Of a DNA stretch of 64,000 bases, positions 1-13,005 are shown piece by piece; the stretch's first letter is position 1; each line of letters starts with the position of its first letter. The notes beneath the pieces were generated by a model. That model worked only from the letters and a program-made list of their open reading frames with translations, searched no databases and had not been told where the DNA came from. The translations under genes and the position numbers were made by a program. The stretch covers positions 1 through 64,000 of IMG/VR virus record IMGVR_UViG_2700989400_000004, one strand, 5' to 3'. This DNA comes from a virus. Taxonomy: Duplodnaviria > Heunggongvirae > Uroviricota > Caudoviricetes.

Positions 1-201
1 TCATCGTCTCGGTTTGTCCGGTTTCCGCCACTGATACGGCCTCACAACATCATGCTGGTGGCGTTCCTGTTGCAGCACAACGGAAACAGGCACTGAACAC
101 CTGTTAATTTTGCTTCGTGGCGGCTTGATTCCGGTAATGCTGCGGATCATCTCCAGCAAATCGGCTTCGGTGATGGTCATGGCTTTCCTGTCAGCACTCA
201 T
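1..201 (-). CDS. hypothetical small protein
   Basis: Complete 66-codon ORF with stop at 1-3; internal ATG (MTITEADLL) preceded by GGAAAG; no motif recognised. Confidence 0.25.
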   Translation of the reverse strand: MSADRKAMTITEADLLEMIRSITGIKPPRSKINRCSVPVSVVLQQERHQHDVVRPYQWRKPDKPRR

Positions 202-229
202 ATCACATTAATACGTTCATTACGATGGA

Positions 230-814
230 TTATCCCGTTTTAGTGACTAACCATTGCAGAATAACGATAATTAAATATGTTAATGTACCAGTTCCAAGAA
301 GTATTAATAATTGATAACAACGTAGAGCAATATTACTAATCGATTTTTGCATTACGATATTCACTAACTCAGCCACACACTCTTTAGATCTTATCGATAG
401 AATGCTTGGAACTTCTCTATTTATTGATAATATTTCACATTGAATAGACTCACCTGGTGCGAGGCTTTCAAGCCTGATAATATAGCGACCATCCTTTTCA
501 ATATTTTCTTCAACATGGTGGACAGGCCAAAAATTAATATGCATTGGCTTATAGTTAAAAACCAATGATATATTAGTAGCACTTTCTCGCCCTTCATTAA
601 CAAGAATAATCGATCGTGTATACACCAATTGTGAGTTAGATATTACTTCACCACTGGTGTCCCGTAATGGTTCATGAACAAGAAAAGTAAATCCATGCTG
701 ATAACCATAGGATAACTTTGCCTTGCTTTTAAATCTGTTATTCAGCATCCATGTAAAAATAGCAATAAAAAAAGAAAATATTTCTTTCCCATAAAGACTA
801 AAAAAACTCATCAC
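230..814 (-). CDS. hypothetical membrane protein with hydrophobic segments at both termini
   Basis: 194 aa ORF in markedly AT-rich DNA; hydrophobic N- and C-terminal stretches; no family recognised. Confidence 0.45.
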   Translation of the reverse strand: MMSFFSLYGKEIFSFFIAIFTWMLNNRFKSKAKLSYGYQHGFTFLVHEPLRDTSGEVISNSQLVYTRSIILVNEGRESATNISLVFNYKPMHINFWPVHHVEENIEKDGRYIIRLESLAPGESIQCEILSINREVPSILSIRSKECVAELVNIVMQKSISNIALRCYQLLILLGTGTLTYLIIVILQWLVTKTG

Positions 815-929
815 AAACTTCCCTCAGTAACCTGATTCTGTTGTTAAAGTTACCAGCACTATAGTCATTCATTCACATTGCGACAAGAAGGTTACAGCAC
901 GCTCAATCACACCTCAGAAAATCTTAGAG

Positions 930-1146
930 AAGGTTGACACACTTGACACTTTTCCGCGAAAAACCTTAACAAAACTTAGCATTTCTAAGCATGGCAACTT
1001 GACACTTTTCGCGATTTTTTCTGCTTTTTGATGTGGCAAACATGGCGCAAGACCAGTAATGACGGGGCTTACAGCGAGGTTGACACTTTTTCGTGTTCAG
1101 AGTGTAAAGTGTCAACCTTGCAAGCTGCTCAACTTGACACTTTTTG
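930..1146. repeat. cluster of TTGACAC(TTTT) repeats: five direct copies plus one inverted
   Basis: Direct copies near 933, 943, 999, 1080 and 1134; inverted GTGTCAA at 1110; seen directly in sequence. Confidence 0.6.
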
Positions 1147-1152
1147 CGGCCG

Positions 1153-1695
1153 TTAATGACCTGTTTTCTCCCATTCAGCCAGGGCGTTTAGTCCTGCCTC
1201 GCTCCATGATTCAAGTTCATCAGGATAATCACCTGCAACATAGCAGAGTTCACAGCGCAGCATACGAATTGCCAGCCTGGCATTACCCCGCAAATTGTAT
1301 TGTTCAAAGTAATGCTGTCCTTCATCATCCTCAAGGCAGATAGCACCATCATCAAGAAAGTGTGCTTCCCAGCCTAATTCCCCGGCTGCATCCTGCACAC
1401 ACTGCTTTATGTCATCGTCCGTTACTGGCGCAGGAATTTTACCGTCTCTGTCCCTGACAGCTTTCCAGAACTCGCCCCACGTCATTTCCAGCGTTCTCTC
1501 AGGCCACATTTCAGAAACAGTGTCTTTTCCCTGTGATGGTGGGCTGTTTCGCCACTCTGTCGCCTCCATATCAATTTTTTTACCCGACATGACCACCTCG
1601 CCTTTCTCGATCCAGTCGTAAACTGTCTGGCGGCTTACACCTTTGTATTTGGCGTATTCGGCTTTACTCATCAACATGTGGCTCACCTCATGCAT
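1153..1695 (-). CDS. helix-turn-helix DNA-binding protein (Nu1/excisionase-like N-terminal HTH)
   Basis: N-terminal MSKAEYAKYKGVSRQTVYDWIEKGEV resembles winged-HTH of small-terminase/excisionase-type proteins; start uncertain. Confidence 0.45.
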   Translation of the reverse strand: MHEVSHMLMSKAEYAKYKGVSRQTVYDWIEKGEVVMSGKKIDMEATEWRNSPPSQGKDTVSEMWPERTLEMTWGEFWKAVRDRDGKIPAPVTDDDIKQCVQDAAGELGWEAHFLDDGAICLEDDEGQHYFEQYNLRGNARLAIRMLRCELCYVAGDYPDELESWSEAGLNALAEWEKTGH

Positions 1696-1776
1696 ATACG
1701 ATAAACATTCACTTCATGCGAAAAAGGAATTCGTTGTGGGTATGGCGGAGAGGGGCAATCACCGCCCCTTGCGGAT

Positions 1777-2049
1777 TCAGTTACGCCAGGATGGCTGGCT
1801 AAGCGTGGTTTTCATTACATCGTTGACGACCTGTTTTACGATTTCTGTGTTGGCAGTCGTGCTTTCAACATCAACAAAACCATAATCGCCAATTTCCACC
1901 GTCAGAGATTCCAGTTTTTTCCCCAGCGCGTCTGGCAACTCTCCACTGAACCGGTGCTGAAGATTTTCCACCAGCAACGCCCTGAATGCCTCGCTGTTCT
2001 CTTTTTTCTGCCATAGCTGGCGTTTATCCACTCTGATATTTAATTTCAC
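1777..2049 (-). CDS. hypothetical acidic protein
   Basis: 90 aa ORF; start overlaps stop of upstream small gene (ATGA). Confidence 0.35.
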   Translation of the reverse strand: MKLNIRVDKRQLWQKKENSEAFRALLVENLQHRFSGELPDALGKKLESLTVEIGDYGFVDVESTTANTEIVKQVVNDVMKTTLSQPSWRN

Positions 2050-2213
2050 AGTCTCACCTCTTTAAGTGCCTTATCCATCAGTTGCCGGGCTATAACATGA
2101 ATTGACGGTGCCACACCAAGCACAGATTTCTGACGCTCTTCGTCCTGGATGCGTTGCAGGGCTTCGATCTGCCTCCGGGAAAGTAAAACTGGCTTTACTC
2201 CGTGATTTTTCAT
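2046..2213 (-). CDS. small ribbon-helix-helix-like protein
   Basis: 55 aa from internal ATG; beta-strand then two helices pattern (KPVLLS / RRQIEALQRI / APSIHVIARQLM). Confidence 0.35.
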   Translation of the reverse strand: MKNHGVKPVLLSRRQIEALQRIQDEERQKSVLGVAPSIHVIARQLMDKALKEVRL

Positions 2214-2302
2214 GATGATCCCTTCTGAATGACAATAATTGCAATTATTGCAATTATTGAAATGATACCAGAGACAATTGCAATAAATGAAACGAAAAGC
2301 AT
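2210..2302 (-). CDS. small hydrophobic peptide (30 aa)
   Basis: MLFVSFIAIVSGIISIIAIIAIIVIQKGSS; AAGGTTGG Shine-Dalgarno upstream; stop overlaps next start. Confidence 0.25.
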   Translation of the reverse strand: MLFVSFIAIVSGIISIIAIIAIIVIQKGSS

Positions 2303-2491
2303 CAATAAACCAACCTTCGGCACTGAATGCTCTGATTTTTCTGCAAAGGTATGGCAGATGTTGGTGCATGCAAACATAAAGGCAATAGCAGAAGAAGCTG
2401 CGGGGAGTGAAAAGGGGAAGTTTTTATAAATACACGATTGTCGCCTCACTGCAGGTTAACAGCCACAAGCTCCATGATAATAACTTGTTAA

Positions 2492-2815
2492 TTATTTCAT
2501 CAGATTTTTCATTATTTGCGCGATTGAGTACACAAGCAAAAACTCGGCAGCCGCAAGAGTATAAAAAACATAAATTCGCTTAGCCCACCGACGATGAAAG
2601 AACTCCTCAGCATGGCCGGATGTTCGAGATACAAGCCATGCACCTACTGCACACAGAGCAGGTGCAATGAGCACAGTTATAAACCAGATTGTGATGCCCA
2701 TCCCATGCCTACTGATAATAGCCATTGGTATTGCAAAAATGAATGTTAGAGCAGCATTAGCTAATAGAATATCTTTTAAAGTATTTTCAATTAGTTTTGC
2801 TAGATTATCTTTCAT
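2492..2815 (-). CDS. hypothetical multi-pass membrane protein
   Basis: 107 aa, several hydrophobic helices, AT-rich. Confidence 0.4.
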   Translation of the reverse strand: MKDNLAKLIENTLKDILLANAALTFIFAIPMAIISRHGMGITIWFITVLIAPALCAVGAWLVSRTSGHAEEFFHRRWAKRIYVFYTLAAAEFLLVYSIAQIMKNLMK

Positions 2816-2844
2816 CTAATCCCCCACGTTGAACATTAATATAT

Positions 2845-2865
2845 AAAAGCCCCTTACTAAGGGGC
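2845..2865 (-). terminator. rho-independent terminator after lipoprotein gene
   Basis: GCCCCTTA/TAAGGGGC stem followed by T-tract on minus strand. Confidence 0.55.
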
Positions 2866-2879
2866 TTTGCACGGATTGT

Positions 2880-4022
2880 TTAAAGGGAACTTTTTTTCGC
2901 CCCTTCAATTTCTGCCTGACAAATTTCGTCATTTGTAAATGAGTACTGCAGATAGACATATCCCTGAGTGGAATTGTTCGCTCTGGCCTCAATAGATATA
3001 GTATCAATATTGTTTTTTAATGGTATTTCTTTTGTTCCCTTCCATGTGGCAGATAAGAAGCGTTCTTTTTTGTTTAGCCCCCTCATCCAGTCCTGAGGAT
3101 CTTTCCAAATTGAACCAGCCAGCAAAAAGTCTGTAGTATCAGCCTTTCCATACAGAGAACTTAAAGAATTACTCAATTCTTCAAACTTTGATTTAAGAGC
3201 CAATCCATAGCTATCAGTATCAATATTTTTTCCTAAAGCCCGTATTTGACATAAACCAGCTTTCGGGGAGATCAGCAAACCATACATTTCAAAATCTGCG
3301 TTTTGCTTCGGTAATTTATCAGAAGTATACAGATTCACACTGTCTGGTAGTGGCTTGAGCTTAGCACCGATCATATCTTCGATGTTTTTCTGTGTAAGAC
3401 CGGCTTCTAAGCCAAACGGACCATCCGCTGGCGGGAGTAAAGGAAGTTGCTCTTGGGAATTTTTGGCTGTTACTTCCGTTTCAGTACTGTTTTTTGCGTC
3501 ATTAGCTTGTACTGATGCCAGCTTAACTTCAGCGAGGCCATACTTGGCTGTGAGGTACTTTTGCTGCAACATTGCCATGGTCTGCTCTTCAGTGGCAACA
3601 GTAGATAATTTTAGTACCTTTATCAGACCACCACTATACTGACGAGCATCAGCTTTGGCTTCGTTGATTTTTGCATCTAAGCTGTCAATTTCAGTTTTAA
3701 TTGAAGCCGCAAGCTCAGGATCAGGTTTTACTCCAGATACAACAACATCAATTTTGGCACCTGATTCAATAGCATTAATACGCTGTTCCAAAAGCGCTTT
3801 ATTAGTTCCTAATATTTCCAGTCTTGCTGTTGTCAGATTTTTTATCAACCCACCAGAAAACTGCTGGTCAACTTCCTTAGCTGCTGATATTTCACCTTCC
3901 GTTTGCGACAGTTCAGCTTTAAGAGCAGCTACTTCCTGTTTCTGTTCTGGAGTTAACTCTTCTGGCCCACATCCGGTTAACATTACTATACCGACTAATG
4001 TTGCAATTAAAGTTTTATTCAT
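2880..4022 (-). CDS. lipoprotein with repeated QxxSGGLIK motif
   Basis: Signal peptide plus lipobox LTGC; 380 aa; two copies of (Q/R)Q(F/Y)SGGLIK. Confidence 0.6.
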   Translation of the reverse strand: MNKTLIATLVGIVMLTGCGPEELTPEQKQEVAALKAELSQTEGEISAAKEVDQQFSGGLIKNLTTARLEILGTNKALLEQRINAIESGAKIDVVVSGVKPDPELAASIKTEIDSLDAKINEAKADARQYSGGLIKVLKLSTVATEEQTMAMLQQKYLTAKYGLAEVKLASVQANDAKNSTETEVTAKNSQEQLPLLPPADGPFGLEAGLTQKNIEDMIGAKLKPLPDSVNLYTSDKLPKQNADFEMYGLLISPKAGLCQIRALGKNIDTDSYGLALKSKFEELSNSLSSLYGKADTTDFLLAGSIWKDPQDWMRGLNKKERFLSATWKGTKEIPLKNNIDTISIEARANNSTQGYVYLQYSFTNDEICQAEIEGAKKSSL

Positions 4023-4156
4023 ATCCCTATTCCAAATGAAAATATTCAGATTAATCTTATCAGGAACCCAGATGCAATTGAATATTCATCTGCTCAGCAA
4101 CGTAGTAGATTTCCTCAGAAAGCATCAACAAAAAACCAAGAGAATCCCATCCTCTG

Positions 4157-4444
4157 TTACTGACTACAATTGTTCTTTTTTTGGTATTTCCTGAATGCCT
4201 CACCATTGGGCTGATGTAATCCCATCCCGGCATGTGCCCGGCTGATGGTTTCGCGCATCTCCCCGAAATTATCCTGCCTTGCTGGTGGGCGTGCTGCCTT
4301 GTGGATACATTCCGCGCGACGTTTTGCCGCCTGTTCCCGTGCCTTGTCATCATTCGCCAGCATGATGACCTCAGCCCACCGCGCCGCCGCTCTCCGGTAC
4401 AGTCCACGCGCTTCCAGTGCTTCCGCTTTGCTGTCGTGAATCAT
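4157..4444 (-). CDS. PerC family transcriptional activator
   Basis: 95 aa; N-terminal MIHDSKAEALEARGLYRRAAARWAEV typical of PerC-like proteins of P4-like elements. Confidence 0.6.
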   Translation of the reverse strand: MIHDSKAEALEARGLYRRAAARWAEVIMLANDDKAREQAAKRRAECIHKAARPPARQDNFGEMRETISRAHAGMGLHQPNGEAFRKYQKKNNCSQ

Positions 4445-4998
4445 GCGCCTGTTTTCTCCCTGGCTGCCCGGCGCTGGCGTTTGCGCTTCTCATTCAGCGC
4501 CATCAGCCGCATTTCTGCCTCGTTCTGTTTCTGTGGTGTCACCTCGCCGCACGGCTGGCCTTTCAGGTCATAGCGCACCCCACCAGCCATTAAGGCGCGG
4601 TAATAGCGCGGACACTGCGCATAAGATGCCAGCGTCGCACGTAATGCCCCTGGACCGAATGCCAGCCCCCTGACGGCGATATCCTGCATCAGGTCGTCGA
4701 ATATCCCCACCTTAAGTGGCTTCGGTGCTTCCCGGCTGAATAATTCAGGCCACAACTCAGTGAGACGGTTAACGCGCCTGCGGTTTTTGCGCTGGCGTTT
4801 GGTCATATGCCGCCACGGTGTCGCCCCTGTGGGCTTCTGCTGCGCTTTCTGGTTACCGGGCATCACTTTATGTGCCGATGTGGTTTTATCCTGCTTCTGT
4901 GCCGCCTGCGTCGTTTTCTGCGGCGTGCCGTAAATACCTTTCGGTTTTCTGTTAATGGTCAGTTTTGTCATGCTCTGCCCCATCATTGTTGCCGTCAT
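4441..4998 (-). CDS. ProQ/FinO-domain RNA chaperone-like protein
   Basis: LKVGIFDDL, RATLASYAQCPRYYRAL and RYDLKGQPCGEV align with the ProQ N-terminal domain (LKIGIFQDL, RSALRLYTSSWRYLYGV, RVDLDGNPCGEL). Confidence 0.6.
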   Translation of the reverse strand: MTATMMGQSMTKLTINRKPKGIYGTPQKTTQAAQKQDKTTSAHKVMPGNQKAQQKPTGATPWRHMTKRQRKNRRRVNRLTELWPELFSREAPKPLKVGIFDDLMQDIAVRGLAFGPGALRATLASYAQCPRYYRALMAGGVRYDLKGQPCGEVTPQKQNEAEMRLMALNEKRKRQRRAAREKTGA

Positions 4999-5149
4999 AT
5001 CGGCACGTAAAAATAAAACAGTCTCATTGTCAGTTACCTGTCAGCTTTTATGCCTTTTCCGGGTGGGATGGCTGACAGTAGTCAATCGTAATACAAAATT
5101 TGAACAACCTTTTTTTCTGTACTCTATAAGGCGTAAAAAAACATTTTTT

Positions 5150-5430
5150 ACCGGGATATCGGGATATAAACAAAAAAACCCCATTTATTTCATAGCGTTA
5201 TGTGATTTTTCATATCCCGCCATATCCCGGTAAGTTTTTTTTTGCTTATGCATCAATAAGATATTGCGGGATACATTCCGGGATACGGTTATTTTGTTTG
5301 TTTTACAACCACTCGTAAACCTAAATACCGGGATACGGCGGGATACAGCGGGATACGACAACAACACATAAATAACTGATATTTATGCAATATATTTTTC
5401 ATATCCCGATATCCCGCATATCCCGCGATT
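5150..5430. repeat. iteron cluster, about 12 copies of CGGGATA in both orientations (putative satellite replication origin)
   Basis: AT-rich 300 bp immediately 3' of the primase gene; direct and inverted CGGGATA/TATCCCG groups near 5152, 5210, 5265, 5330 and 5400. Confidence 0.6.
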
Positions 5431-5457
5431 TTTGACCCTCTGCGAGCGTAGGTTGTG

Positions 5458-7590
5458 CTATTCGTCTTCTGCCTGATCAATCAGCACGATAAATCGCTGC
5501 TGTGTTCCGTTAATCTTCACTGTTTTCGATGTCCAGCGACCAGGTTCTGCACAAACCAGCATTCCGGCTTCTTCCAGCGCCTGACACCCAAAGTTCCTGG
5601 ATATACCGCATAAAATTTCGCTATCAAACACTGACGGGATAATGTGATATTCGGGTTTTCCATCCTCACGCTTACCGCTGACAAGATAGCCTGCAAGATT
5701 GCTTATACGGGATGCATAGTGGTTATCCATATCCCCATTGCTTTTCCCGTAGGTATAAGGCTGAAAACGACTCAGGGCATGGCGCTGAATAAAGTCACGG
5801 GCGCGACTGATGACCTGATATTTTTCCCGGTTTTCCAGCCCGAAATCCTGTAGCCAGTCATCAAAAGCCCGTTGCGTTGCTTCCCGGCATTCTTCAGCTG
5901 TCCAGCCAGTAATTGCGGTGGCAAGCTCTCCGGCTGCATCCAGCATGGCGAATCGCGATGCCACTCGCCTTACCTGTGACGAGGCATTTTCAGGCAGATT
6001 TCCCAGCCAGGCATTTTCTTTATCTGAAGTGGTGTTGATAGCCAGCTCCTTGTGAGCGGATAACCAGCGCACCCACTCACGTCCCGCAGCGCCACAATAA
6101 TTTGATGAAAGTCGCTTTATGGCCCTGGCATGTTGATCACCATCGTCATAACCGTTAAACACCGTTGTATCGGTAAAGGGAATGCTTAGCAGTCGCACCA
6201 GTTGCCCTGCCTTTGGGGCAATTCCCCCTTTTAACAGGAAGGTTTCAAAATCTTCTTCTCCGGTGCTTAGTGCCGCTATTTTCCAGCGCATTACCGCACG
6301 ATTACCGCCGTCCTTGCGCCCCTGAATCCTGCCCACACCGTTAAACAGGCTGTAGGCGGATTGCGCAATGTCATTAACCCTTCCTCCCTGACCAATTTCA
6401 TCAATAGGGATAAAACCGTCATTACGTGCAGCTGCTTCCACTGTCAGCCCGTGCCGGGTGGCATCCCACGAGAGTTTAAGCATTTCAGGGTCGCCATAAA
6501 GGCTGGTGGCGGCCTCCACAGTCGTGGTTTTCCCCGCTGACGACTGCGCGAAAAGATGAATACCAAAACAACTACCACCCACAAGGGAATTTAGCGGGGC
6601 TGCCAGCCCGACCAGCACCCCAAGCATCATTGAGTGATTGCCACGCATCAGAGAAGCAACATTATTTCGCCATTCATGCACCGTGCCCCTGACAATATAG
6701 CCTTTGATGGCGGCAGATCCGCCGCAGAATGCTACGGGACGGTCAGGCACACCAATCACCTCGCCATCAGGCATAACATAGGCTCCACAATGCCAACCTG
6801 CTGTTGATGTGACCTCCCACACCGTGCGATCTCCATGACGTTGCAGGTATTCCGCCAGTTTGTTCAGTAAATGGGCACTGGTAGTGATTGCAACTCCCCG
6901 CCCACGTAATCGCGCCCATCCTGCGGGCATACCGATTTCATTGCGCGGCATCGCTTCGTAAATAATTTTTTGTGTCCCTTCCGGGATCATTTCAATGATC
7001 AGATACGCTTCCCTTCCGTCGTTACCAATACCTGCCGTGCGCATCCGGTCACTCAGCCAGGTTTCTTTATAATTCATCTCCTCTGCCCTGGTGTTGGGGA
7101 TTGGCTCGATATACCAGAGCGCCCCGTCTTTTTCGGTAATATGCGGTTTCATGGGGTCTGTTTTACCGGGTGATCCACCAGCTATTCCGATTCCTTCAGG
7201 AATGGTTTCCCCGCGCTCTGTCTGTTCGCGGATCCGTTGCAGGTAGTCGCGCCAGTTCTCCGGCTCCCGGTCGGTGATGCCTTTGTATAATTTCGCATCC
7301 TGTACGCCAGCCAGCGCCAGCTTTTCAGCGATAGCATTGATCTGGATTGGCTCTATCTCCCCCGCGATATAAACACGCGCAAAGCGGCGCTCATCGTCGA
7401 TAATGCGGATATTAGCCAGATCTGCCAGTTGCGTTGGCCCCAGGTAAACAGGTGGCACGTTATCGCCGTGTTTTCGTCCTTCGCTTTCAATCCAGTGTTG
7501 AGCATGGGCGTAAGCATCCGTCCCGGCAAAAATGATTACCTCGGTGAATTTATCCTTTGGCTGATATTTTAAATTCGGTGCGTTTTTCAC
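5458..7590 (-). CDS. primase/helicase replication protein (Toprim plus NTPase, P4 alpha-like)
   Basis: 710 aa; Walker A-like AQSSAGKTT; domain order typical of satellite primase-helicases. Confidence 0.8.
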   Translation of the reverse strand: MKNAPNLKYQPKDKFTEVIIFAGTDAYAHAQHWIESEGRKHGDNVPPVYLGPTQLADLANIRIIDDERRFARVYIAGEIEPIQINAIAEKLALAGVQDAKLYKGITDREPENWRDYLQRIREQTERGETIPEGIGIAGGSPGKTDPMKPHITEKDGALWYIEPIPNTRAEEMNYKETWLSDRMRTAGIGNDGREAYLIIEMIPEGTQKIIYEAMPRNEIGMPAGWARLRGRGVAITTSAHLLNKLAEYLQRHGDRTVWEVTSTAGWHCGAYVMPDGEVIGVPDRPVAFCGGSAAIKGYIVRGTVHEWRNNVASLMRGNHSMMLGVLVGLAAPLNSLVGGSCFGIHLFAQSSAGKTTTVEAATSLYGDPEMLKLSWDATRHGLTVEAAARNDGFIPIDEIGQGGRVNDIAQSAYSLFNGVGRIQGRKDGGNRAVMRWKIAALSTGEEDFETFLLKGGIAPKAGQLVRLLSIPFTDTTVFNGYDDGDQHARAIKRLSSNYCGAAGREWVRWLSAHKELAINTTSDKENAWLGNLPENASSQVRRVASRFAMLDAAGELATAITGWTAEECREATQRAFDDWLQDFGLENREKYQVISRARDFIQRHALSRFQPYTYGKSNGDMDNHYASRISNLAGYLVSGKREDGKPEYHIIPSVFDSEILCGISRNFGCQALEEAGMLVCAEPGRWTSKTVKINGTQQRFIVLIDQAEDE

Positions 7591-7877
7591 TTCTTACCTC
7601 CCGCAACCAACATTGCCCGGATTTTTTTAATATTCGAGGCTGCACGTCTTGCCACCGCCAATTGTTTGTTTTCCACCAGAATAAAATCACGCTCAAACTG
7701 ACGGCGCGGCATTACGCAGTCATATTCGTAAGCCTCACGGCGGTAGGTGATATTGCCTGGCGTAACGTGACGAATAACCACTCGTCCCCCACGTCTGGTG
7801 TCGCGGTAAATATCGCCAGAGCGAATTGCAGACCGAGAGAGGCCGCTGGCAGTAAAGCCAGAATTTTTCTTTTTCAT
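7587..7877 (-). CDS. hypothetical basic protein
   Basis: 96 aa ORF in operon with 4-nt overlaps. Confidence 0.4.
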   Translation of the reverse strand: MKKKNSGFTASGLSRSAIRSGDIYRDTRRGGRVVIRHVTPGNITYRREAYEYDCVMPRRQFERDFILVENKQLAVARRAASNIKKIRAMLVAGGKK

Positions 7878-7881
7878 GGTT

Positions 7882-8082
7882 TTATTTTCCTGTCAGCAGT
7901 TCCGGTTTTATTCCTGCACGAATACATAGTTCAGAAAAGCCTTCTACCGTACTTACAATTTCATTATTTCGCAGTCGGCATTGTGATTTCACTTTCCCTT
8001 TATCCAGGTAAACCAGTACGCGCCCGGTGAAATCATCTGGCACATTCAGGGTAATTGTCATTGTTGCTGGCTGATTACCCAT
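7882..8082 (-). CDS. hypothetical protein, one copy of FTGR...FSEL domain
   Basis: 66 aa; paralogous to the repeated domain in 8075..8440. Confidence 0.4.
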   Translation of the reverse strand: MGNQPATMTITLNVPDDFTGRVLVYLDKGKVKSQCRLRNNEIVSTVEGFSELCIRAGIKPELLTGK

Positions 8083-8440
8083 GACTTCCCCCCTGAATGA
8101 TCCGGTAATCGCAACGGGTCAGCAGTTCGCTAAATTCCGGCAGTGTTCCGAAACAGCAATCATCACGCAGCCGTTCGCGGGATACCTCGACGCCGTTTTC
8201 GTAGTGACTCACCATGCGTCCGGTAAAATGCAGATCATCATCGTGATGGTTCGTTAACGGCTTAATAAGTCGCGCACGTTCTGCCAGTTCCAGCAATGCT
8301 TCAACGCTTCCGGCAATTGCACCATCCGGCAGGTGATAATTACTTACCACGCGTCCATTCTCCACGTTAACCAGTAGCTGCTCGGTGAATTTCTCACGAA
8401 ACTGAATGCTGTTAAGGTCAGAAATTGACAGGTTATGCAT
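8075..8440 (-). CDS. hypothetical protein with two tandem FTGR...FSEL-type repeats
   Basis: 121 aa; internal duplication visible by eye. Confidence 0.45.
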   Translation of the reverse strand: MHNLSISDLNSIQFREKFTEQLLVNVENGRVVSNYHLPDGAIAGSVEALLELAERARLIKPLTNHHDDDLHFTGRMVSHYENGVEVSRERLRDDCCFGTLPEFSELLTRCDYRIIQGGSHG

Positions 8441-8798
8441 GGTGCACCTCCTGGCGAATACGGGCAGCGAATACCATCACGCAGCCATCAGGAGATTGCT
8501 GACGCGCTTCCTGTTCGCTGGTGGCCTCGATGTGAATTACGCGCGGTTGTGCTGTGCTCAGGGCGATAAAACGCCAGATAAAATTGTTCTCGCATTTCTG
8601 AATAAACAGCGTGTTTTCTTCGCGCCCTTTCCATGTTGCCGAGATATAGCCCATGTCATTGAGCATCTCGCAGGCATCAACCAGCGTATCAGCGGCTACG
8701 TGTACAGTGTTTTTACCGTCAGCTATGCAATCACGGTGCACCGCCAGGAAGGTGTATATAAATTTAGGGTGAGTTTGGGTATGCTGTGTTCCAGCCAT
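8433..8798 (-). CDS. hypothetical protein, first gene of leftward operon
   Basis: ATG at 8798 with GAGGT Shine-Dalgarno; 121 aa; same frame remains open upstream to 10019. Confidence 0.5.
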   Translation of the reverse strand: MAGTQHTQTHPKFIYTFLAVHRDCIADGKNTVHVAADTLVDACEMLNDMGYISATWKGREENTLFIQKCENNFIWRFIALSTAQPRVIHIEATSEQEARQQSPDGCVMVFAARIRQEVHHA

Positions 8799-8863
8799 AA
8801 TCGTTACCTCGTTTAACGGTTTGGTTAGACGCCCTGCATGTGTGCCACCACTGCGGGGCGTTG

Positions 8864-8898
8864 CTGTATATACACCACAATCATTAGTGTATATACAG
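8864..8898. promoter_or_regulatory. operator-like perfect inverted repeat CTGTATATACAC-N11-GTGTATATACAG
   Basis: 12-bp perfect arms seen directly; lies between divergent 8433..8798 (-) and 8989..9294 (+). Confidence 0.6.
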
Positions 8899-8988
8899 AT
8901 TAGATTTAAGTGTGCTACAGTGTCAAGTGTTTTATCAACACACCTTTTGGTGTAATGTGTACACACCTCAAAATAACCGGACATTCTG

Positions 8989-9294
8989 ATGGCAACAGGA
9001 AACATCAACAGCAGATCGCAAATGAAAAATATCCGCTTCCCCCATGATGTAATCGAGGAAATGGAAAATTCGAAAACGGAAGGGGAAACAATAGCCGCTT
9101 TCGTGATTACAGCCGTTCGCGGTGAAATCGCCCGCCGCCAGGCAGAAGGAAGCGGAGAAAATCCCCTGGTTTCTTCGCTCGATGCACTGGCGCAGGTGGA
9201 AAAAATCGGTGTCAAAGCAGCCGAGGAGATCGGGCAACTCGTCACCGTCGCGCGTGAAGAACTCCAGCGGCGCAAGGCCAAAGAACAGGAGTAA
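8989..9294 (+). CDS. putative Arc/Mnt-like ribbon-helix-helix regulator
   Basis: KNIRFPHDVIEEMEN...AAFVITAVRGEIARR resembles the Arc repressor fold pattern; conflicts with a long open frame on the opposite strand. Confidence 0.35.
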   Translation: MATGNINSRSQMKNIRFPHDVIEEMENSKTEGETIAAFVITAVRGEIARRQAEGSGENPLVSSLDALAQVEKIGVKAAEEIGQLVTVAREELQRRKAKEQE

Positions 9295-10011
9295 CCATCA
9301 CCAGCGCCGTGGTGTGAGGAACTACGGTGCATCGTTTTACAGGGCAGCGCCATGACCAACAAAGAATCAACCAATACACCATCACCGGCACGGAAAAGAC
9401 AGCGCAGAAAGATAGCGTACGAGCATGAGTCAGACAGATTCGCGCCCTGTGCGTTTATCCTTGAGAAATTCCTTAAAGAGTACAGGCGCACAAAAATGGG
9501 GTCGCATACCTGGAAAACATCGCGGCATGGCGATGTTAAAGAGCAGGAATAGCCCACCAGCAAGCCAGCATATTCACCATAATGACCCTCAGTTAAACCT
9601 AGAGTCATTGGTGCAAAGCTGACACATTGCCCACCAGCCGCAAATGTGGCATTGTTGGTGATGCGTTCAAGTATGTAGCTTTTCCACTGGCGGCTCTCTG
9701 CGGTCGCCTTTGTTTTATCCAGAACGAAATCAGACATCAGATTGATCAGCACCTGGCGACCTGACAAAATCGCATCAGTCGCGCCACCAGCAGTATTTTT
9801 TGCTTTCCGGACAGCTTGGCCAACTGCATTTTGCAGCAAAATATTCTGCATTTCTGGCTTACTGTGATAACAGTGATCAGCGCCTTCACTCTGTACGACC
9901 ACAACGCTATAATCTGCCTCGTAGACAGTAAGCAATATGGCGCAGTAAGCGACTTGTTCACAAAGGCGCTCCGGCAACGGGGCGCTTTTTCTTTTTGTAA
10001 CGGTCAGAGCA

Positions 10012-10812
10012 TTACACATGGCTGTTTTCCTCCATGCGACGGGCTAACCAACGCTGCGAAAGACGAATTAATTCAGCTTTCCGCTGGTGGTAGTCCTGGC
10101 CTAACTCAATCAGCGTGATATTGCTCTGCTCAAGGTAAGAAAGATGCTCAAGCTGCAACGTGCTCATGTGGTCGCGTGGTTCGCCTGTGATGCCGTTCGC
10201 CTGCGCCCACTGTTTTGCAGTCATGCCACCCAGCACGATACGCGCCAGCATATTGGCTTCCGTGGTGTAGTGGTGCTGTAGAGTGTTTTTACCCAGCTCA
10301 GCCCGGTACGCCTCCAGCGCGGCACACATTGGCTTAAAGTAGCTGGCAACTGTGATACGGGCTTTCAGTTCCCGGCGTAACACTGCGGAACGCACTGGCG
10401 CTACCTTGTGTAGCTCCTCCTCGCATTTGATAAAGTACTGACGAACGGCGCGGCCCTGTTCGGTGCGTTCGACCATCGCCAGTTCTTTCGCCATGTTCAC
10501 TGTGATGATGTACTCAAGAGCTGTTTGCTGGCGAGATTTTGCGCTCACCGGATCGGGTCGGCTCAAATATTCAACAACCTCATAATCCACGCCTTCCGTG
10601 AACCCGTATTCTTCAATGCGCCCCTTGATCCACGAACGGAAAACGCGCCCTACACCTAACGCCTTATGTAACGCTCTGGCGCTAACAATAGTGGTTTCAC
10701 GCCCACCAATAACGCCGGAAATAACCGGAATAATTTCAGCGAAATTTTGCAGATTCTGTTTTTCAGGCCGAACGAAGCCCCGCCCCTGTACAGGCGTATA
10801 TCCAGTATTCAT
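10012..10812 (-). CDS. phage antirepressor-like protein (Bro-N/AntA-type N-terminus)
   Basis: N-terminal IIPVISGVIGGRETTIVSARALHKALGV...EYGFTEGVDYEV. Confidence 0.6.
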   Translation of the reverse strand: MNTGYTPVQGRGFVRPEKQNLQNFAEIIPVISGVIGGRETTIVSARALHKALGVGRVFRSWIKGRIEEYGFTEGVDYEVVEYLSRPDPVSAKSRQQTALEYIITVNMAKELAMVERTEQGRAVRQYFIKCEEELHKVAPVRSAVLRRELKARITVASYFKPMCAALEAYRAELGKNTLQHHYTTEANMLARIVLGGMTAKQWAQANGITGEPRDHMSTLQLEHLSYLEQSNITLIELGQDYHQRKAELIRLSQRWLARRMEENSHV

Positions 10813-10864
10813 GGTTAAATCTCTGTATTAGTGGATGGGAGGCGGCTGTGTGCCGCCAGCCTGA

Positions 10865-11053
10865 TTAGTGAACTGCCTCGCGGCTGTCCTTCCATGCCAG
10901 AACTTCGGATAAAGACCAGCCAACGGAACGACCACCGAGTTTACGCCGTGATGGGAATTGTCCGGCTTTTTCCAGGCGGTAGCGGCATGAACGGCTCAGG
11001 CCTGTAAGTTGCTGACATTCTTTTTCACGTATAAAGCGATCTGTGCTTAACAC
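10865..11053 (-). CDS. alpA: AlpA family transcriptional regulator
   Basis: 62 aa; LTGLSRSCRYRLEKAGQFPSRRKLGGRSVGWSLSEVLAW is the AlpA-type HTH signature. Confidence 0.75.
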   Translation of the reverse strand: MLSTDRFIREKECQQLTGLSRSCRYRLEKAGQFPSRRKLGGRSVGWSLSEVLAWKDSREAVH

Positions 11054-11416
11054 AATTCCCCCTTTGTTGTTTCTTAAAGAGTCATTGGGTGGATTATTGG
11101 GTTGGGTCGGATTGTGTCAGGGTGTTTATGGAATGGCAAACACTGGTGGCGGTCGTTTTACAGAAGTGGGGTAATGAGAATAAAAACTTTTTTAATTCAT
11201 TGTGATGCAGTAGCGTAAAATTCTGTTTTTACGCCCTTTTTTACATGCTTTTAAGAGTGATTCGCCAATGTACAAAAAGCCAGTAAAACGACTGAAAATC
11301 AACTTTTTAGGGTGTCGGTCAGATGATAATCAAGTTTGTTCCAGATTGTTCGCCGTTGTTCGTCGTGGTGTCTCGTTGTTTCACGTTGTGTCCGTTCTGA
11401 AAAATCGCGAAAAAAA

Positions 11417-12667
11417 TTATATTTCTCTGGCTATTGGCAGTGTGGTTACGTTTTCGTGAGCACCTGCCAGTATCTCTAATCGCTCTGTCCACATATCCAG
11501 CGCGTTACGTTTCGCATCAATATAGCGGGAGTGGTTATAGACTCGTTGCATCCCTGGCATCTGGTGGGCGGTAAGTTGCTCGACAATATGCGGATCCACG
11601 CCTAAATCGTTCAGCATCGTGGTAAACGTGCGCCGTATATCGTGCAGGGACCAGTGAGGATGGTTTAATTTTTTGTGCGTAAATCTGCCGTATTGTGACA
11701 CGCTGGCTTCCTGTTTCAGTTCTCCGAGTAATAACCCTGTGTGCCTGTTCTGCTCCACCAGTTGCGTGACGAACGGCAAAATGCTTTCCGGTATTGGCCT
11801 GAATATGGCGACCTTCGTTTTGCTGTGTTCTTTCGGTACCGTCCAGAGCATTTCCTTAAAATCCCACTCCCTGATCTCCGACAGCCTCAGTTCTCCAGTT
11901 CGGCAGCCAAACACAATCAGGAGGCGGATTAGCGCGCTGTAGTAGGGCGGGAATATTTTTTTATCCAGCGCCTGTAATAATTCGCCCAGTTCTTTGTTAC
12001 TAAGCACGCGTTCGCTTATGCCTGGCTTTTTGCCAACGTCCACCACGTTGAGATCATCCAGAACGTTACTGACTGCGTAGCGACGTTTTCGGCAGAACTT
12101 AAGCGCCTGTTTACACGCCTGCATCATGTGACCAGACGTTACAGGGGATTTTTTGCGTATCCGGTCAAAACAGGCCAGCCAGTGACGTAACTCGCATTTA
12201 TCCAGTGGCATATTGCCAATATGCTGTATGACGTGATTATTCAGGCGGCTGTTCAGGGAGACGTAATCGACACGGTTTTCCTTTACGTGCATTTCCAGCC
12301 AGTAGCTGATCGCATCACCCACCGTTACCGGCTTTAGTGCTTCCTGTATGGAGTAATTAAGCTCATGGCGTGGATTTTTTCCTTCTGCCAGCCATGCGCG
12401 ACACTGTGCCGCTTTTTCCCTGGCTGCTTTCAGGCTCAGATCAGGATAATTTCCCAGCTTCAGGCGTTCCGGTGATACCAGGCGTCCAGCTCCTGCCCTG
12501 TAGGTGAAATACCAGGTTAACAAGCCGCTGGTGGAATGCCTGACGCTCAGGTTTCCACCGTCATTAAGAAATGTGGTTTTTGGGGCTGGTGTGCCGTTGA
12601 TTTTTCTTAGCTGTGTATCGCTCAGTTTGTTAAGTGCTCTGCTCATAATTTTGAATCCGGTCATCAC
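11417..12667 (-). CDS. int: tyrosine-type site-specific integrase (P4-like)
   Basis: 416 aa; N-terminal arm-binding-like domain and C-terminal catalytic region (HxxR...Y); start uncertain. Confidence 0.85.
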   Translation of the reverse strand: MMTGFKIMSRALNKLSDTQLRKINGTPAPKTTFLNDGGNLSVRHSTSGLLTWYFTYRAGAGRLVSPERLKLGNYPDLSLKAAREKAAQCRAWLAEGKNPRHELNYSIQEALKPVTVGDAISYWLEMHVKENRVDYVSLNSRLNNHVIQHIGNMPLDKCELRHWLACFDRIRKKSPVTSGHMMQACKQALKFCRKRRYAVSNVLDDLNVVDVGKKPGISERVLSNKELGELLQALDKKIFPPYYSALIRLLIVFGCRTGELRLSEIREWDFKEMLWTVPKEHSKTKVAIFRPIPESILPFVTQLVEQNRHTGLLLGELKQEASVSQYGRFTHKKLNHPHWSLHDIRRTFTTMLNDLGVDPHIVEQLTAHQMPGMQRVYNHSRYIDAKRNALDMWTERLEILAGAHENVTTLPIAREI

Positions 12668-12668
12668 A

Positions 12669-12692
12669 ATTAACTACACCATTAACTACACC
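12669..12692. repeat. tandem 12-bp direct repeat ATTAACTACACC x2 next to int start
   Basis: Seen directly; candidate arm-type or regulatory site. Confidence 0.5.
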
Positions 12693-12910
12693 GATCATTG
12701 CACAAGGGGGTACAACGTGGAACAAATTGGAACAAGAAAAATTGCAATGAGTTTAAAAATCAAAAACATAATGAACAACGTGGCACATTATGAAACAGCA
12801 AAAAACACTAATTTATAAAATCACGATATTAATAATGTAACTTATATTTTCGTGAAATCTGTCACTGAAGAAAATTGGCAACTAAAGGTTAAAACCGTTA
12901 TAACACAGTC

Positions 12911-13005
12911 ACCGGCGCAGAGGAGACAATGCCGGATTTAAGACGCGGATGCACTGCTGTGTGTACTGTAGAGTCTGGCGGATGTCGACAGACTCTATTT
13001 TTTTA
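12911..13005 (+). ncRNA. mcaS: McaS (IsrA) small regulatory RNA
   Basis: Matches recalled McaS sequence ACCGGCGCAGAGGAGACAAUGCCGGAUUUAAGACGCGGAUG..., ends in a GAGTCTG...CAGACTC hairpin plus U-tract, convergent with abgR as in K-12. Confidence 0.7.

What the first reader, a model, noticed from the sequence alone, without database searches (positions are those of the whole stretch)
5150..5430. Dense CGGGATA iteron field downstream of the primase gene
About twelve 7-bp repeats in direct and inverted groups within 300 bp of AT-rich DNA, exactly where satellite origins lie relative to their primase/helicase. This defines a candidate origin whose specificity determinant can be tested.
Basis: partly seen in the sequence, partly recalled or inferred. 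Interest (0 to 1): 0.45.

Follow-up and report, generated by a model that had tools for sequence, protein, structure and literature searches.

The report
Replication origin of a phage satellite
The twelve CGGGATA repeats are almost certainly the replication origin of a phage-parasitic island (PICI) in the E. coli chromosome. The helicase gene just upstream probably reads them; the arrangement is a known kind, but this version has not been described.

Summary
Exactly 12 CGGGATA copies lie at 5152-5425, in five clusters. In gene orientation they read >>> 53 <<< 50 << 44 >> 53 <<. They start 33 nt after the stop codon of a 710-aa DUF927 protein (5458-7590, minus strand).

That protein is a sequence and fold relative of the SaPIbov1 Rep self-loading helicase. 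It has no recognisable primase domain.

The island (window start to 12693) has int, alpA, one-directional genes and a published PICI att core. Its E. coli 55989 homologue is already listed as a PICI.

- **Same layout elsewhere:** in most of ~35 mapped related loci from many genera, the same layout of about 12 sites follows the homologous gene. The 7-mer differs (at least 9 classes).
- **Class tracks the C-terminal domain:** the iteron class follows the protein's C-terminal winged-helix-like domain, not the helicase core. Some pairs have 100% identical cores but different iterons.
- **Conservation:** iteron columns are 79% invariant against 33% for the spacers.
- **Melting site:** the least stable DNA lies between the convergent triplets.
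- **Free circle:** a 10.5-kb circular Klebsiella element carries the same Rep class and iterons.

Verdict: cognate Rep-ori pair of the SaPI/PICI type. It is a new member of a known kind. Function is inferred, not tested.

The parts
5152..5425 (-). Iteron field, the candidate ori: 12 exact CGGGATA(Y) sites in five clusters. In the gene's orientation they read A >>> , B <<< , C << , D >> , E <<.
   Evidence: The same layout appears in most of the mapped related loci. Iteron columns are invariant in 66 of 84 positions, against 62 of 190 for the rest of the field, across E. coli, Serratia and Salmonella.
5402..5425 (-). Cluster A: three tightly packed iterons (8-9 bp apart). The first starts 33 nt after the rep stop codon.
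   Evidence: A tight doublet or triplet 23-48 nt after the stop is present in every mapped locus.
5356..5401 (.). Spacer S1 (46 bp, 76% A+T) between the convergent triplets A and B. Predicted DNA-unwinding site.
   Evidence: The least stable 30-mer of the region is 5370-5399, with dG -29.7 kcal/mol. That is beyond the 99th percentile (-32.0) of the whole window. The A-to-B distance of 50-54 bp is kept in most mapped loci, though a few show 59-64 bp.
5329..5355 (+). Cluster B: three iterons at 10-bp spacing, inverted relative to A.
   Evidence: Strain ZF8-1 has two extra units here, as a 20-bp insertion.
5267..5285 (+). Cluster C: two iterons 12 bp apart, in the same orientation as B.
5213..5229 (-). 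Cluster D: two iterons 10 bp apart, in the same orientation as A.
5167..5212 (.). Spacer S4 (46 bp, 74% A+T) between the convergent clusters D and E.
5152..5166 (+). Cluster E: two tightly packed iterons (8 bp apart) that close the field.
   Evidence: A terminal tight set at 8-9 bp spacing is present in most mapped loci.
5458..7590 (-). rep: a 710-aa DUF927 helicase-initiator. It has a Walker A motif (GKT, 353-355) and no Toprim or primase domain.
   Evidence: Pfam DUF927, E 2e-40. PDB by sequence: 8tch and 5dgk, E about 2e-6. The model matches 8tch (SaPIbov1 Rep, E 6e-14) and 5dgk (Cch, E 9e-14). Invariant motifs are listed.
5461..5703 (-). Codons about 630-710 of rep: the C-terminal winged-helix-like domain. 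Its terminal beta-hairpin is GRWTSKTVKINGTQQRFIVL. This is the proposed iteron reader.
   Evidence: Model (pLDDT 75): two helices followed by a beta-hairpin. Best fold hits are SaPIbov1 Rep and then the wHTH oriT-binding protein 5vfx. The iteron class tracks this segment: the ratio of same-class to different-class identity is about 2, against 1.2 in the core. Some pairs have 100% identical cores but different iterons.
7201..7590 (-). Codons 1-130 of rep: an N-terminal module shared with the otherwise unrelated Rep proteins of EcCICFT073 and EcCI042.
   Evidence: 49% identity (E 7e-34) and 54% identity (E 1e-43) over the first ~130 aa only. DNA identity of 93-95% to genes annotated as RepA helicase or DNA primase family.
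5435..5450 (-). Conserved box TACGCTCGCAGAGGGT between the stop codon and the first iteron. Function unknown.
   Evidence: Conserved in the E. coli, Serratia and Salmonella alignment. A related CAC..G.AG box occurs in other classes.
5119..5136 (-). Conserved box TTTACGCCTTATAGAGTA just beyond the last iteron. It looks like a -10 TATA element. Function unknown.
   Evidence: A TATATAGAG-like box follows the last iteron in most classes.
10865..11053 (-). alpA, the PICI activator and excision regulator.
   Evidence: Pfam Phage_AlpA, E 3e-18
11422..12651 (-). Tyrosine integrase of the island.
12668..12693 (+). att repeat AATTAACTACACCATTAACTACACCG at the integrase end of the island. The other copy lies just before the window start.
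   Evidence: A 26-bp direct repeat flanks the island in the 99.9%-identical strain 442/2, and an exact copy is in the window. Its reverse complement is the att core listed for EcCIDI14 in Table S1 of PMC6092414.
4157..4971 (-). ProQ/FinO-family gene and perC, the genes downstream of the ori in the same transcription direction.

Best explanation
The field is the vegetative replication origin of a ~13-kb phage-inducible chromosomal island (PICI) integrated between smrA and abgR.

Proposed mechanism (each step inferred from homologues):
1. A helper phage switches on AlpA, the island excises, and rep is expressed.
2. The 710-aa DUF927 Rep is a self-loading, MCM-like hexameric helicase related to SaPIbov1 Rep. 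It docks its C-terminal winged-helix domains on the CGGGATA iterons.
3. The convergent triplets A and B are about five helical turns apart. They hold the protein on both sides of the 46-bp, 76% A+T spacer S1, which melts.
4. Two hexamers load and unwind outwards. Twelve sites would give one site per subunit of a double hexamer.
5. Priming must come from another enzyme, probably host DnaG, because this Rep lacks the Toprim domain.

Shown here: the anatomy, its conservation, the co-variation of iteron with the C-terminal domain, and the sequence and fold homology of Rep. Inferred: binding, melting, stoichiometry and replication.
For: 1. Position and anatomy. There are 12 iterons, the first 33 nt after the rep stop, in direct and inverted clusters around AT-rich spacers. 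This matches the published definition of SaPI and PICI origins: 6-12 iterons immediately downstream of rep, an AT-rich centre, and at least two iterons on each side in opposite orientation (PMC9371898; PMC6092414).

2. Rep homology. By sequence it matches 8tch and 5dgk. By fold, the full model matches 8tch at E 6e-14 and 5dgk at 9e-14. For the C-terminal model the best hit is again SaPIbov1 Rep, followed by a wHTH DNA binder.

3. Comparative evidence. Downstream of most of the 78 homologous genes in many Enterobacterales genera there is a 7-mer repeated 5-15 times. The cluster layout is the same and the modal count is 12. There are at least 9 different motifs.

4. Specificity. The iteron class tracks the last ~120 aa and not the helicase core. 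Enterobacter loci L079 and L081/L069 have 100% identical cores and 73% identical C-terminal domains, and their iterons are TGAACCA versus AGACAAC.

5. Purifying selection. Iteron columns are invariant at 66 of 84 positions, the rest of the field at 62 of 190. Indels come in whole iteron units.

6. Validated neighbour. The experimentally validated EcCICFT073 pri-rep-ori has the same synteny (DUF4222, rep, gap, perC). Its ori has 11 GGTAGA iterons laid out alike. Its Rep shares the N-terminal module with this one.

7. Free circles. A 10.5-kb circular K. aerogenes record carries int, alpA and a capsid gene. Among the genes listed for the record (the PLSDB gene table is incomplete), its only recognisable replication gene is a Rep of this class (64% identical), followed by 10 GGGATAA sites in the same layout.

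8. Linkage. The field follows rep whatever gene lies downstream: ProQ here, a 160-aa gene plus SSB in Serratia, ShlB in Salmonella.
Against: - No experiment on this element exists, and no paper in the searched library pairs this motif with the word iteron.
- The field is more complex than the simple two-set SaPI picture. It has five clusters and two convergent modules, so which spacer melts is only a stability prediction.
- The structural models are of moderate confidence (pLDDT 75 and 67), and the ATPase core in the full model is poorly predicted.
- The '12 sites = two hexamers' reading is numerology until stoichiometry is measured. Some relatives have 8-10 or 14-16 sites.
- A free circular record could be an excised but non-replicating circle, or an assembly product.
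- A conserved TATA-like box sits next to the last iterons, so the field may also have a transcriptional role.
Confidence: 0.85

Rival explanations
1. The repeats are mainly a transcriptional operator array. A regulator (Rep itself, PerC, AlpA or another protein) would bind them to control the downstream ProQ-PerC operon, or to terminate or insulate rep transcription. The field would not act as an origin.
For: The field lies upstream of the ProQ/FinO-perC genes, in the same direction. A conserved TATA-like box (TTATAGAG / TATATAGAG) follows the last iteron cluster in most classes, so cluster E would sit where a -35 element would be. Iteron-binding initiators often autoregulate (general knowledge of iteron plasmids).
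Against: No sigma-70 consensus promoter on the minus strand and no intrinsic terminator in 4900-5600. The field stays attached to rep while the downstream gene changes between loci. The motif co-varies with the Rep C-terminal domain. Twelve sites spread over 274 bp with two AT-rich 46-bp spacers are far more than an operator needs. A secondary regulatory role is not excluded.
Confidence: 0.07
2. The field is a centromere-like partition site, or a packaging (pac/cos) recognition site used when the island is mobilised.
For: Partition sites and terminase-binding sites can also be arrays of short direct and inverted repeats. PICIs must be packaged by helper phage machinery (PMC6092414).
Against: No ParA/ParB, TerS or other candidate binding protein is encoded in the island. 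No lambda-type cosN occurs in the island: the closest matches, with 2 mismatches or fewer, all lie beyond 31 kb. The co-variation is with Rep. The position right after the rep stop is the origin position in validated SaPIs and EcCICFT073.
Confidence: 0.03
3. The repeats are a non-functional remnant, or a chance or slippage-generated repeat array.
For: Strains STEC383 and ECamp52 hold diverged copies of the field (91% identity). In the one examined, STEC383, the island is decayed and has lost rep, so the DNA can persist without its protein.
Against: The enrichment is far beyond chance. The orientation pattern and spacings are conserved across genera while the motif itself changes. Iterons are conserved far more than spacers. 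In the window, rep is intact with all invariant helicase motifs.
Confidence: 0.01

Closest known systems
SaPI replication origins (SaPIbov1 / SaPI1 Rep-ori; Ubeda et al. 2007, as summarised in PMC9371898 and PMC7581432)
   Same: - The origin lies immediately 3' of rep.
- It has 6-12 short iterons in opposite orientations around an AT-rich region.
- Rep is a self-loading hexameric helicase whose C-terminal winged-helix domain reads the iterons.
- The window Rep is a sequence and fold homologue of SaPIbov1 Rep.
   Different: - The host is Gram-negative.
- Iterons are 7 bp rather than 5-6 bp.
- There are five clusters with two convergent modules rather than two sets around one centre.
- No separate pri gene is evident, and Rep carries an extra 130-aa N-terminal module.
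- Sequence identity to SaPIbov1 Rep is only about 12% in the structural alignment.
EcCICFT073 pri-rep-ori, a Gram-negative PICI origin validated by plasmid maintenance (Fillol-Salom et al. 2018, PMC6092414)
   Same: - Same island type and synteny: int, alpA, icd-like, DUF4222, rep, ori, perC.
- The ori is the gap right after rep, with 11 iterons. A tight pair sits about 17 nt after the stop, followed by a ~46-bp AT-rich spacer and then inverted sets.
- The N-terminal 130 aa of Rep are homologous.
   Different: - The body of Rep is unrelated: a 'DNA primase family' protein rather than DUF927.
- The iteron is GGTAGA rather than CGGGATA.
- EcCICFT073 carries capsid and decoration genes that this island lacks.
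Phage P4 alpha protein with ori and crr
   Same: A satellite-encoded initiator-helicase with a C-terminal origin-binding domain that reads short iterons (from my own knowledge of P4). The PICI EcCIRM13514 has 12 copies of GGTGAACA (reverse complement TGTTCACC) after its rep. As far as I recall, TGTTCACC is the P4 type I iteron.
   Different: P4 needs a second iteron region (crr) several kb away. Here no second cluster exists: the other CGGGATA copies in the island are single. P4 alpha is a primase-helicase of another family, and the window Rep has no primase domain.
SCCmec Cch (DUF927) helicase
   Same: Same Pfam family and same fold.
   Different: No iteron origin has been defined for Cch, to my knowledge. 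For the unrelated Cch2, three direct repeats downstream of the gene are bound (PMC7581432). SCCmec is not a phage satellite.
Iteron plasmids (pPS10, RK2, F, R6K)
   Same: Repeated initiator-binding sites next to an AT-rich unwinding region, read by winged-helix domains.
   Different: - Plasmid iterons are 17-22 bp direct repeats.
- Plasmid Rep proteins are not helicases and recruit host DnaB through DnaA boxes.
- Here the sites are 7 bp, occur in both orientations, no DnaA box lies in the field, and the initiator is itself a helicase.

Membership tests
SaPI/PICI-type Rep origin | Located immediately 3' of the rep open reading frame | tested here: met
   The first iteron starts 33 nt after the stop codon.
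SaPI/PICI-type Rep origin | Six to twelve short iterons | tested here: met
   12 exact 7-mers. The modal count is 12 in related loci.
SaPI/PICI-type Rep origin | An AT-rich region flanked by at least two iterons on each side pointing in opposite directions | tested here: met
   Triplets A (5402-5425) and B (5329-5355) converge on the 46-bp, 76% A+T spacer S1, which holds the least stable 30-mer of the region.
SaPI/PICI-type Rep origin | Rep is a hexameric helicase-initiator with a C-terminal winged-helix domain | tested here: inconclusive
   Homology to SaPIbov1 Rep and Cch by sequence and by fold. The C-terminal model shows helix, helix and beta-hairpin, and its best hit is SaPIbov1 Rep. The models are of moderate confidence, and the oligomeric state is not testable here.
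SaPI/PICI-type Rep origin | Iteron sequence matched to the cognate Rep C-terminal domain (specificity) | tested here: met
   At least 9 iteron classes each have their own C-terminal hairpin sequence. Class tracks the C-terminal domain and not the core. Some pairs have 100% identical cores but different iterons.
SaPI/PICI-type Rep origin | Rep binds the ori specifically, and rep plus ori drive autonomous replication | not testable with these tools
   The only indirect evidence is the free circular 10.5-kb and 12.2-kb records that carry Rep proteins of this family; the 10.5-kb one has the same iteron class.
Gram-negative PICI (island level) | Integrase plus a specific att site not used by prophages | tested here: met
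   int is at 11422-12651. The 26-bp att repeat at 12668-12693 equals the EcCIDI14 att core. The abgR-smrA site is a listed PICI site (Table S1).
Gram-negative PICI (island level) | alpA activator and unidirectional transcription | tested here: met
   AlpA Pfam hit, E 3e-18. All main genes are on the minus strand.
Gram-negative PICI (island level) | pri-rep followed by ori | tested here: met
   rep is followed by the field. The N-terminal module is shared with the EcCICFT073 and EcCI042 Rep proteins. The 55989 homologue is listed as a PICI in the supplement of PMC6092414.
Gram-negative PICI (island level) | Helper-phage induction, packaging and interference functions (cos/terS, capsid genes) | tested here: not met
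   No capsid, TerS or lambda-type cosN was found in the island. Induction and transfer are not testable here. This lowers certainty about the island's mobility, not about the origin.
P4-type origin (ori + crr) | A second iteron cluster (crr) at a distance, required in cis | tested here: not met
   The other CGGGATA copies in the island (231, 5635, 8178) are single.
Iteron-plasmid origin | 17-22-bp direct iterons, DnaA boxes, non-helicase Rep | tested here: not met
   The sites are 7 bp and occur in both orientations. No DnaA box lies in 5150-5430. Rep is a P-loop helicase.

The most novel reading that the evidence does not exclude
The field may be one instance of a fixed 12-site, five-cluster template (3 + 3 + 2 + 1-2 + 2-3, with spacers of about 50 bp) onto which a double hexamer docks, one winged-helix domain per iteron.

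The template is kept while the recognised 7-mer has been re-coded at least nine times through changes in the C-terminal hairpin. A similar 11-12-site layout occurs at PICI origins served by unrelated P4-alpha-type helicases.

If this is right, it points to a general design rule for self-loading helicase origins. It would also give a readable protein-DNA recognition code, with natural swap pairs that have identical motors.
Probability: 0.3. Interest if true: 0.6.

Novelty: new member of a known kind. Interest (0 to 1): 0.35.

Why it matters
It assigns a function to a 274-bp non-coding block present in 26 of 5426 complete E. coli genomes, including the O104:H4 outbreak lineage.

It shows that E. 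coli PICIs use at least three unrelated helicase bodies, each with its own iterons, behind a common N-terminal module. The DUF927 (SaPIbov1-like) type had not been analysed.

The comparative set gives ready-made experiments on origin specificity:
- at least 9 iteron classes;
- natural pairs with identical helicase cores but different C-terminal hairpins and iterons;
- a conserved geometry of about 12 sites.

These bear on an open question raised in PMC9371898: how two Rep hexamers are arranged at the origin. Satellite replicon specificity also governs which islands can coexist in a cell and how they are amplified by helper phages.

Tried and rejected
- **Promoter and terminator scan of 4900-5600:** no minus-strand sigma-70 site and no intrinsic terminator. 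A simple promoter or terminator reading is not supported.
- **DnaA boxes:** none in the field, and the window-wide count is at chance level. This is not a DnaA-dependent plasmid-type origin.
- **Rfam, gathering threshold, 1-13000:** only McaS at 12911-13000, nothing in the field.
- **Coding potential:** ORFs of 60-92 aa overlap the field. No RefSeq annotation calls them, and relatives carry 11-bp and 20-bp indels there. Rejected.
- **Lambda-type cosN:** none in the island.
- **att core of EcCIEC2733.1:** it occurs once, at 12821-12838, but has no second copy in strain 442/2. The real flanking repeat is the 26-mer at 12668-12693.
- **Sequence search of the C-terminal 151 aa against PDB:** no hit. 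Only the fold comparison linked it to SaPIbov1 Rep.
- **Primase domain:** Pfam at E up to 10 finds none. The weak fold hits of the N-terminal part to T7 gp4 and DnaG primase domains (probability 0.30-0.35) are too weak to use.
- **E. coli ED1a record:** not in the collection.
- **Literature:** no paper in the searched library links CGGGATA or TATCCCG with iterons.

Full report
**1. The observation**

The region 5152-5425 holds exactly twelve CGGGATA heptamers. The whole 64-kb window has 22, against 7.5 +/- 2.7 in dinucleotide-preserving shuffles. Twelve therefore fall in 274 bp where about 0.03 would be expected.

I read the copies in the direction of the neighbouring gene, which is on the minus strand. 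They form five clusters:
- A, three copies (5402-5425, 8-9 bp apart)
- B, three inverted copies (5329-5355, 10 bp apart)
- C, two copies oriented like B (5267-5285)
- D, two copies oriented like A (5213-5229)
- E, two copies oriented like B (5152-5166, 8 bp apart)

As a map this is [33 nt from stop] >9>8> 53 <10<10< 50 <12< 44 >10> 53 <8<. The extended consensus is CGGGATAY.

**2. The surroundings**

The field sits in the 486-bp gap between the stop codon of a 710-aa gene (5458-7590, minus) and the start of a ProQ/FinO-family gene (4441-4971), which is followed by perC.

Upstream, on the same strand, lie two small genes, a DUF4222 gene, an Icd-like gene, an AntA-like gene, alpA (10865-11053; Pfam Phage_AlpA, E 3e-18) and a tyrosine integrase (11422-12651).

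In strain 442/2, which is 99.9% identical over 16 kb, a 26-bp direct repeat flanks the island. One copy is in the window at 12668-12693. The other lies a few hundred bases before the window start. Its reverse complement is the att core listed for the PICI EcCIDI14 in Table S1 of Fillol-Salom et al. 2018. The abgR-smrA location is also a listed PICI site.

The homologous island at thrW in E. coli 55989 (296286-311648) is labelled PICI in that paper's supplementary tables.

The gene order int, alpA, icd-like, DUF4222, rep, gap, (ssb), (proQ), perC is the same as in EcCICFT073, EcCI042 and EcCIRM13514. So the element is a Gram-negative PICI of about 13 kb. It lacks recognisable capsid or packaging genes.

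**3. The upstream protein**

Pfam finds only DUF927 (residues 227-434, E 2e-40), even at E up to 10. No Toprim or zinc-ribbon domain is present. Relatives of about 900 aa do carry PF08273 and PF13362 at the N-terminus. In the window protein that part is replaced by a module of about 130 aa.

By sequence the protein matches two solved structures: SaPIbov1 Rep (8tch) and the SCCmec helicase Cch (5dgk), each at E about 2e-6. An AlphaFold model (pLDDT 67) matches the same two at E 6e-14 and 9e-14 over about 600 columns. The Walker A motif and other motifs are invariant in an alignment of 16 relatives.

A separate model of the last 151 residues (pLDDT 75) shows a long helix, two short helices and a terminal beta-hairpin. 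Its best fold match is again SaPIbov1 Rep (probability 1.0). The next is the winged-helix oriT-binding protein TcpK, solved bound to DNA.

The literature states that SaPI Reps are self-loading helicases. Their C-terminal winged-helix domain recognises 6-12 iterons placed immediately downstream of rep, around an AT-rich centre. Two hexamers probably load, one on each side (PMC9371898; PMC7581432).

The word 'primase' in the finding's title is therefore loose. The gene is a helicase-initiator.

**4. Comparative evidence**

An alignment-based scan of one genome per species gave 80 loci with a homologous gene.

*Repeats follow the gene.* In most of the 78 loci analysed, the 600 bp after the stop codon contain one 7-mer repeated 5-15 times.

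*The motif differs between clades:*
- GGGATA(A): Xenorhabdus, Photorhabdus, Providencia, Morganella, Serratia, Salmonella
- TGAACCA, TGAACCG
- GAACCGAC, TACCCGAC
- CGGGTTA, TAACCCA
- GGGACAA, AGACAAC

*The layout is the same.* A tight set lies 23-48 nt after the stop. A gap of roughly 50 bp follows (50-54 bp in most loci, up to 64 in a few), then an inverted set, inner sets, another gap of about 50 bp, and a terminal tight set. With one mismatch allowed, the modal number of sites is 12 (15 of 35 loci). Several of the '13' counts are 12 plus one distant stray match.

*The class follows the C-terminal domain.* Identity between proteins of the same iteron class, relative to different classes, is about 1.2-fold in the helicase core but about 2-fold in the last 120 residues. 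Each class has its own hairpin sequence.

The clearest cases are natural swaps. The Enterobacter loci L079 and L081/L069 have 100% identical cores (residues 230-470) but 73% identical C-terminal domains, and their iterons are TGAACCA versus AGACAAC. L061 and L054 have 91% identical cores and 53% identical C-terminal domains, with CGGGTTA versus TGAACCA. Conversely, proteins of one class can differ by 30% in the core.

*Close relatives.* I aligned the field from three E. coli strains, a Serratia and a Salmonella. Iteron columns are invariant at 66 of 84 positions, against 62 of 190 for the rest of the field. Length changes come in iteron units: strain ZF8-1 has two extra copies as a 20-bp insertion.

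*Linkage.* The field stays with rep although the next gene differs.

**5. Comparison with a validated origin**

In EcCICFT073, Fillol-Salom et al. showed that pri-rep plus the downstream ori maintains a plasmid, and that mutating either part abolishes this.

That ori is the 288-bp gap after the gene. It holds 11 GGTAGA copies in a layout much like the one here: <9< 46 > 22 <11<9< 31 >11> 22 < 46 >9>. EcCIRM13514 has 12 GGTGAACA copies, and EcCI042 has several AAGTGAG copies.

The bodies of these Rep proteins are unrelated to the window protein. Yet all share its first ~130 residues (49-54% identity, E 7e-34 and 1e-43). At the DNA level that segment reaches 93-95% identity to genes annotated as RepA helicase or DNA primase family.

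So E. coli PICIs exchange a cassette made of helicase body, C-terminal domain and origin, behind a constant N-terminal module. The DUF927 cassette is not among the three published islands I could fetch and examine (EcCICFT073, EcCI042, EcCIRM13514). One later paper lumps DUF927 into 'Primase' and notes only that an ori lies downstream of pri (PMC10111431).

**6. Free circles**

Searching plasmid records with the protein found small circular 'plasmids' that are clearly excised islands.
- K. aerogenes pYD-K10_2 (10,541 bp) has int, alpA, YlcI and a protease-capsid fusion. Among the genes listed for the record (the PLSDB gene table is incomplete), its only recognisable replication gene is a DUF927 Rep, 64% identical, with the same hairpin class. 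That gene is followed by 10 GGGATAA sites with the map )9>8> 51 <10(10< 33 < 23 > 62 <8<.
- A 12.2-kb E. coli circle carries a TGAACCA-class Rep.

This is consistent with autonomous replication, but it does not prove it.

**7. Rivals**

*Operator array for the downstream operon.* This cannot be fully excluded as a second role, because a conserved TATA-like box follows the last iteron in most classes. Three things argue against it as the main function. There is no consensus promoter or terminator. The linkage is to rep rather than to the downstream gene. And the anatomy is much more elaborate than an operator needs.

*Partition or packaging site.* No partner protein is encoded in the island and there is no cos sequence.

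*Chance or decay.* The conservation pattern excludes this. Decayed copies without rep do exist, as in STEC383.

**8. Mechanism and confidence**

I put 0.85 on the reading that the field is the cognate origin of this Rep. The individual steps are inferred from SaPI work, not shown here:
- winged-helix docking on the iterons;
- melting of S1;
- loading of two hexamers;
- priming by a host enzyme, since Rep lacks Toprim.

The match between 12 sites and 12 subunits is suggestive only.

**9. Novelty and score**

The kind is known: the SaPI/PICI rep-ori design, already stated to hold in Gram-negative PICIs. This particular origin, its DUF927 Rep type in E. coli PICIs, and the family-wide conserved geometry with re-coded iterons are undescribed in the papers I could search.

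I rate it a new member of a known kind, with interest 0.35. It would not surprise a specialist, but it offers a well-defined system for studying origin specificity.

Noticed in passing
window 7201-7590 (codons 1-130 of rep); L083 5242-5640; L088 6930-7325: The first ~130 aa of Rep form a module shared (49-54% identity) with the otherwise unrelated Rep proteins of EcCICFT073 ('DNA primase family') and EcCI042 ('RepA helicase'). At the DNA level it is 93-95% identical to such genes in other E. coli. It always follows a DUF4222 gene. Its function is unknown; the model shows an alternating beta-alpha fold.
   Followed up: partly
L089 8055-8330 (EcCIRM13514): The gap after the Rep of this published PICI holds 12 copies of GGTGAACA. 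The reverse complement is TGTTCACC, which as far as I recall is the phage P4 type I iteron. The layout resembles the one in the window.
   Followed up: partly
window 5119-5136 and 5435-5450; 3' and 5' flanks of the fields in L004-L081: Two conserved boxes bracket the iteron field. A CAC..G.AG / TACGC..GCAGAGGGT box lies between the stop codon and the first iteron. A TTTT..TATATAGAG-like box lies just after the last iteron. The second is present in most iteron classes and resembles a -10 element.
   Followed up: partly
L091 (K. aerogenes pYD-K10_2, 10,541 bp) and L092 (E. coli, 12,152 bp): Records deposited as small non-mobilizable plasmids are excised circular PICI-like islands (int, alpA, icd-like, DUF4222, perC; one has a protease-capsid fusion). 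A DUF927 Rep is their only recognisable replication gene among the genes listed for these records.
   Followed up: partly
L085 3001-3339 (E. coli STEC383): A decayed island at the same smrA-abgR site keeps the iteron field (91% identity), but has lost rep and has truncated int and proQ genes.
   Followed up: no
L025 4731-4900 (Photorhabdus temperata); L003 4950-5000 (Xenorhabdus khoisanae): The rep-proximal cluster is expanded to 10 tandem GGGATAA copies at 8-bp spacing in L025. L003 has nine copies of a 5-bp tandem unit (ACGTT) after a Rep of the GGGATA class.
   Followed up: no
L030 and L033 (Serratia oryzae, Erwinia psidii), 5136-5600: These loci also use GGGATAA, but in the opposite orientation relative to the shared layout. 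Their C-terminal domain belongs to another lineage, close to the GGGACAA class of L032. Apparently a one-base re-coding has converged on the same core.
   Followed up: partly
L001 5579-7535 (E. coli 55989 variant of the island): The 55989 and O104:H4 version carries an AAA ATPase plus a DUF4435 gene pair at its accessory end. From memory this resembles the PARIS anti-phage system. The window's version has different cargo there.
   Followed up: no
window 12911-13000: The McaS/IsrA sRNA gene (Rfam RF00115, 103.7 bits) lies just outside the island's integrase-side att repeat, next to abgR.
   Followed up: no
window 12821-12838: An exact copy of the 18-bp att core listed for another PICI (EcCIEC2733.1, abgR-smrA site) lies 128 bp outside this island's own att repeat. 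Two different PICI integrases may target adjacent sequences in this intergenic region.
   Followed up: partly
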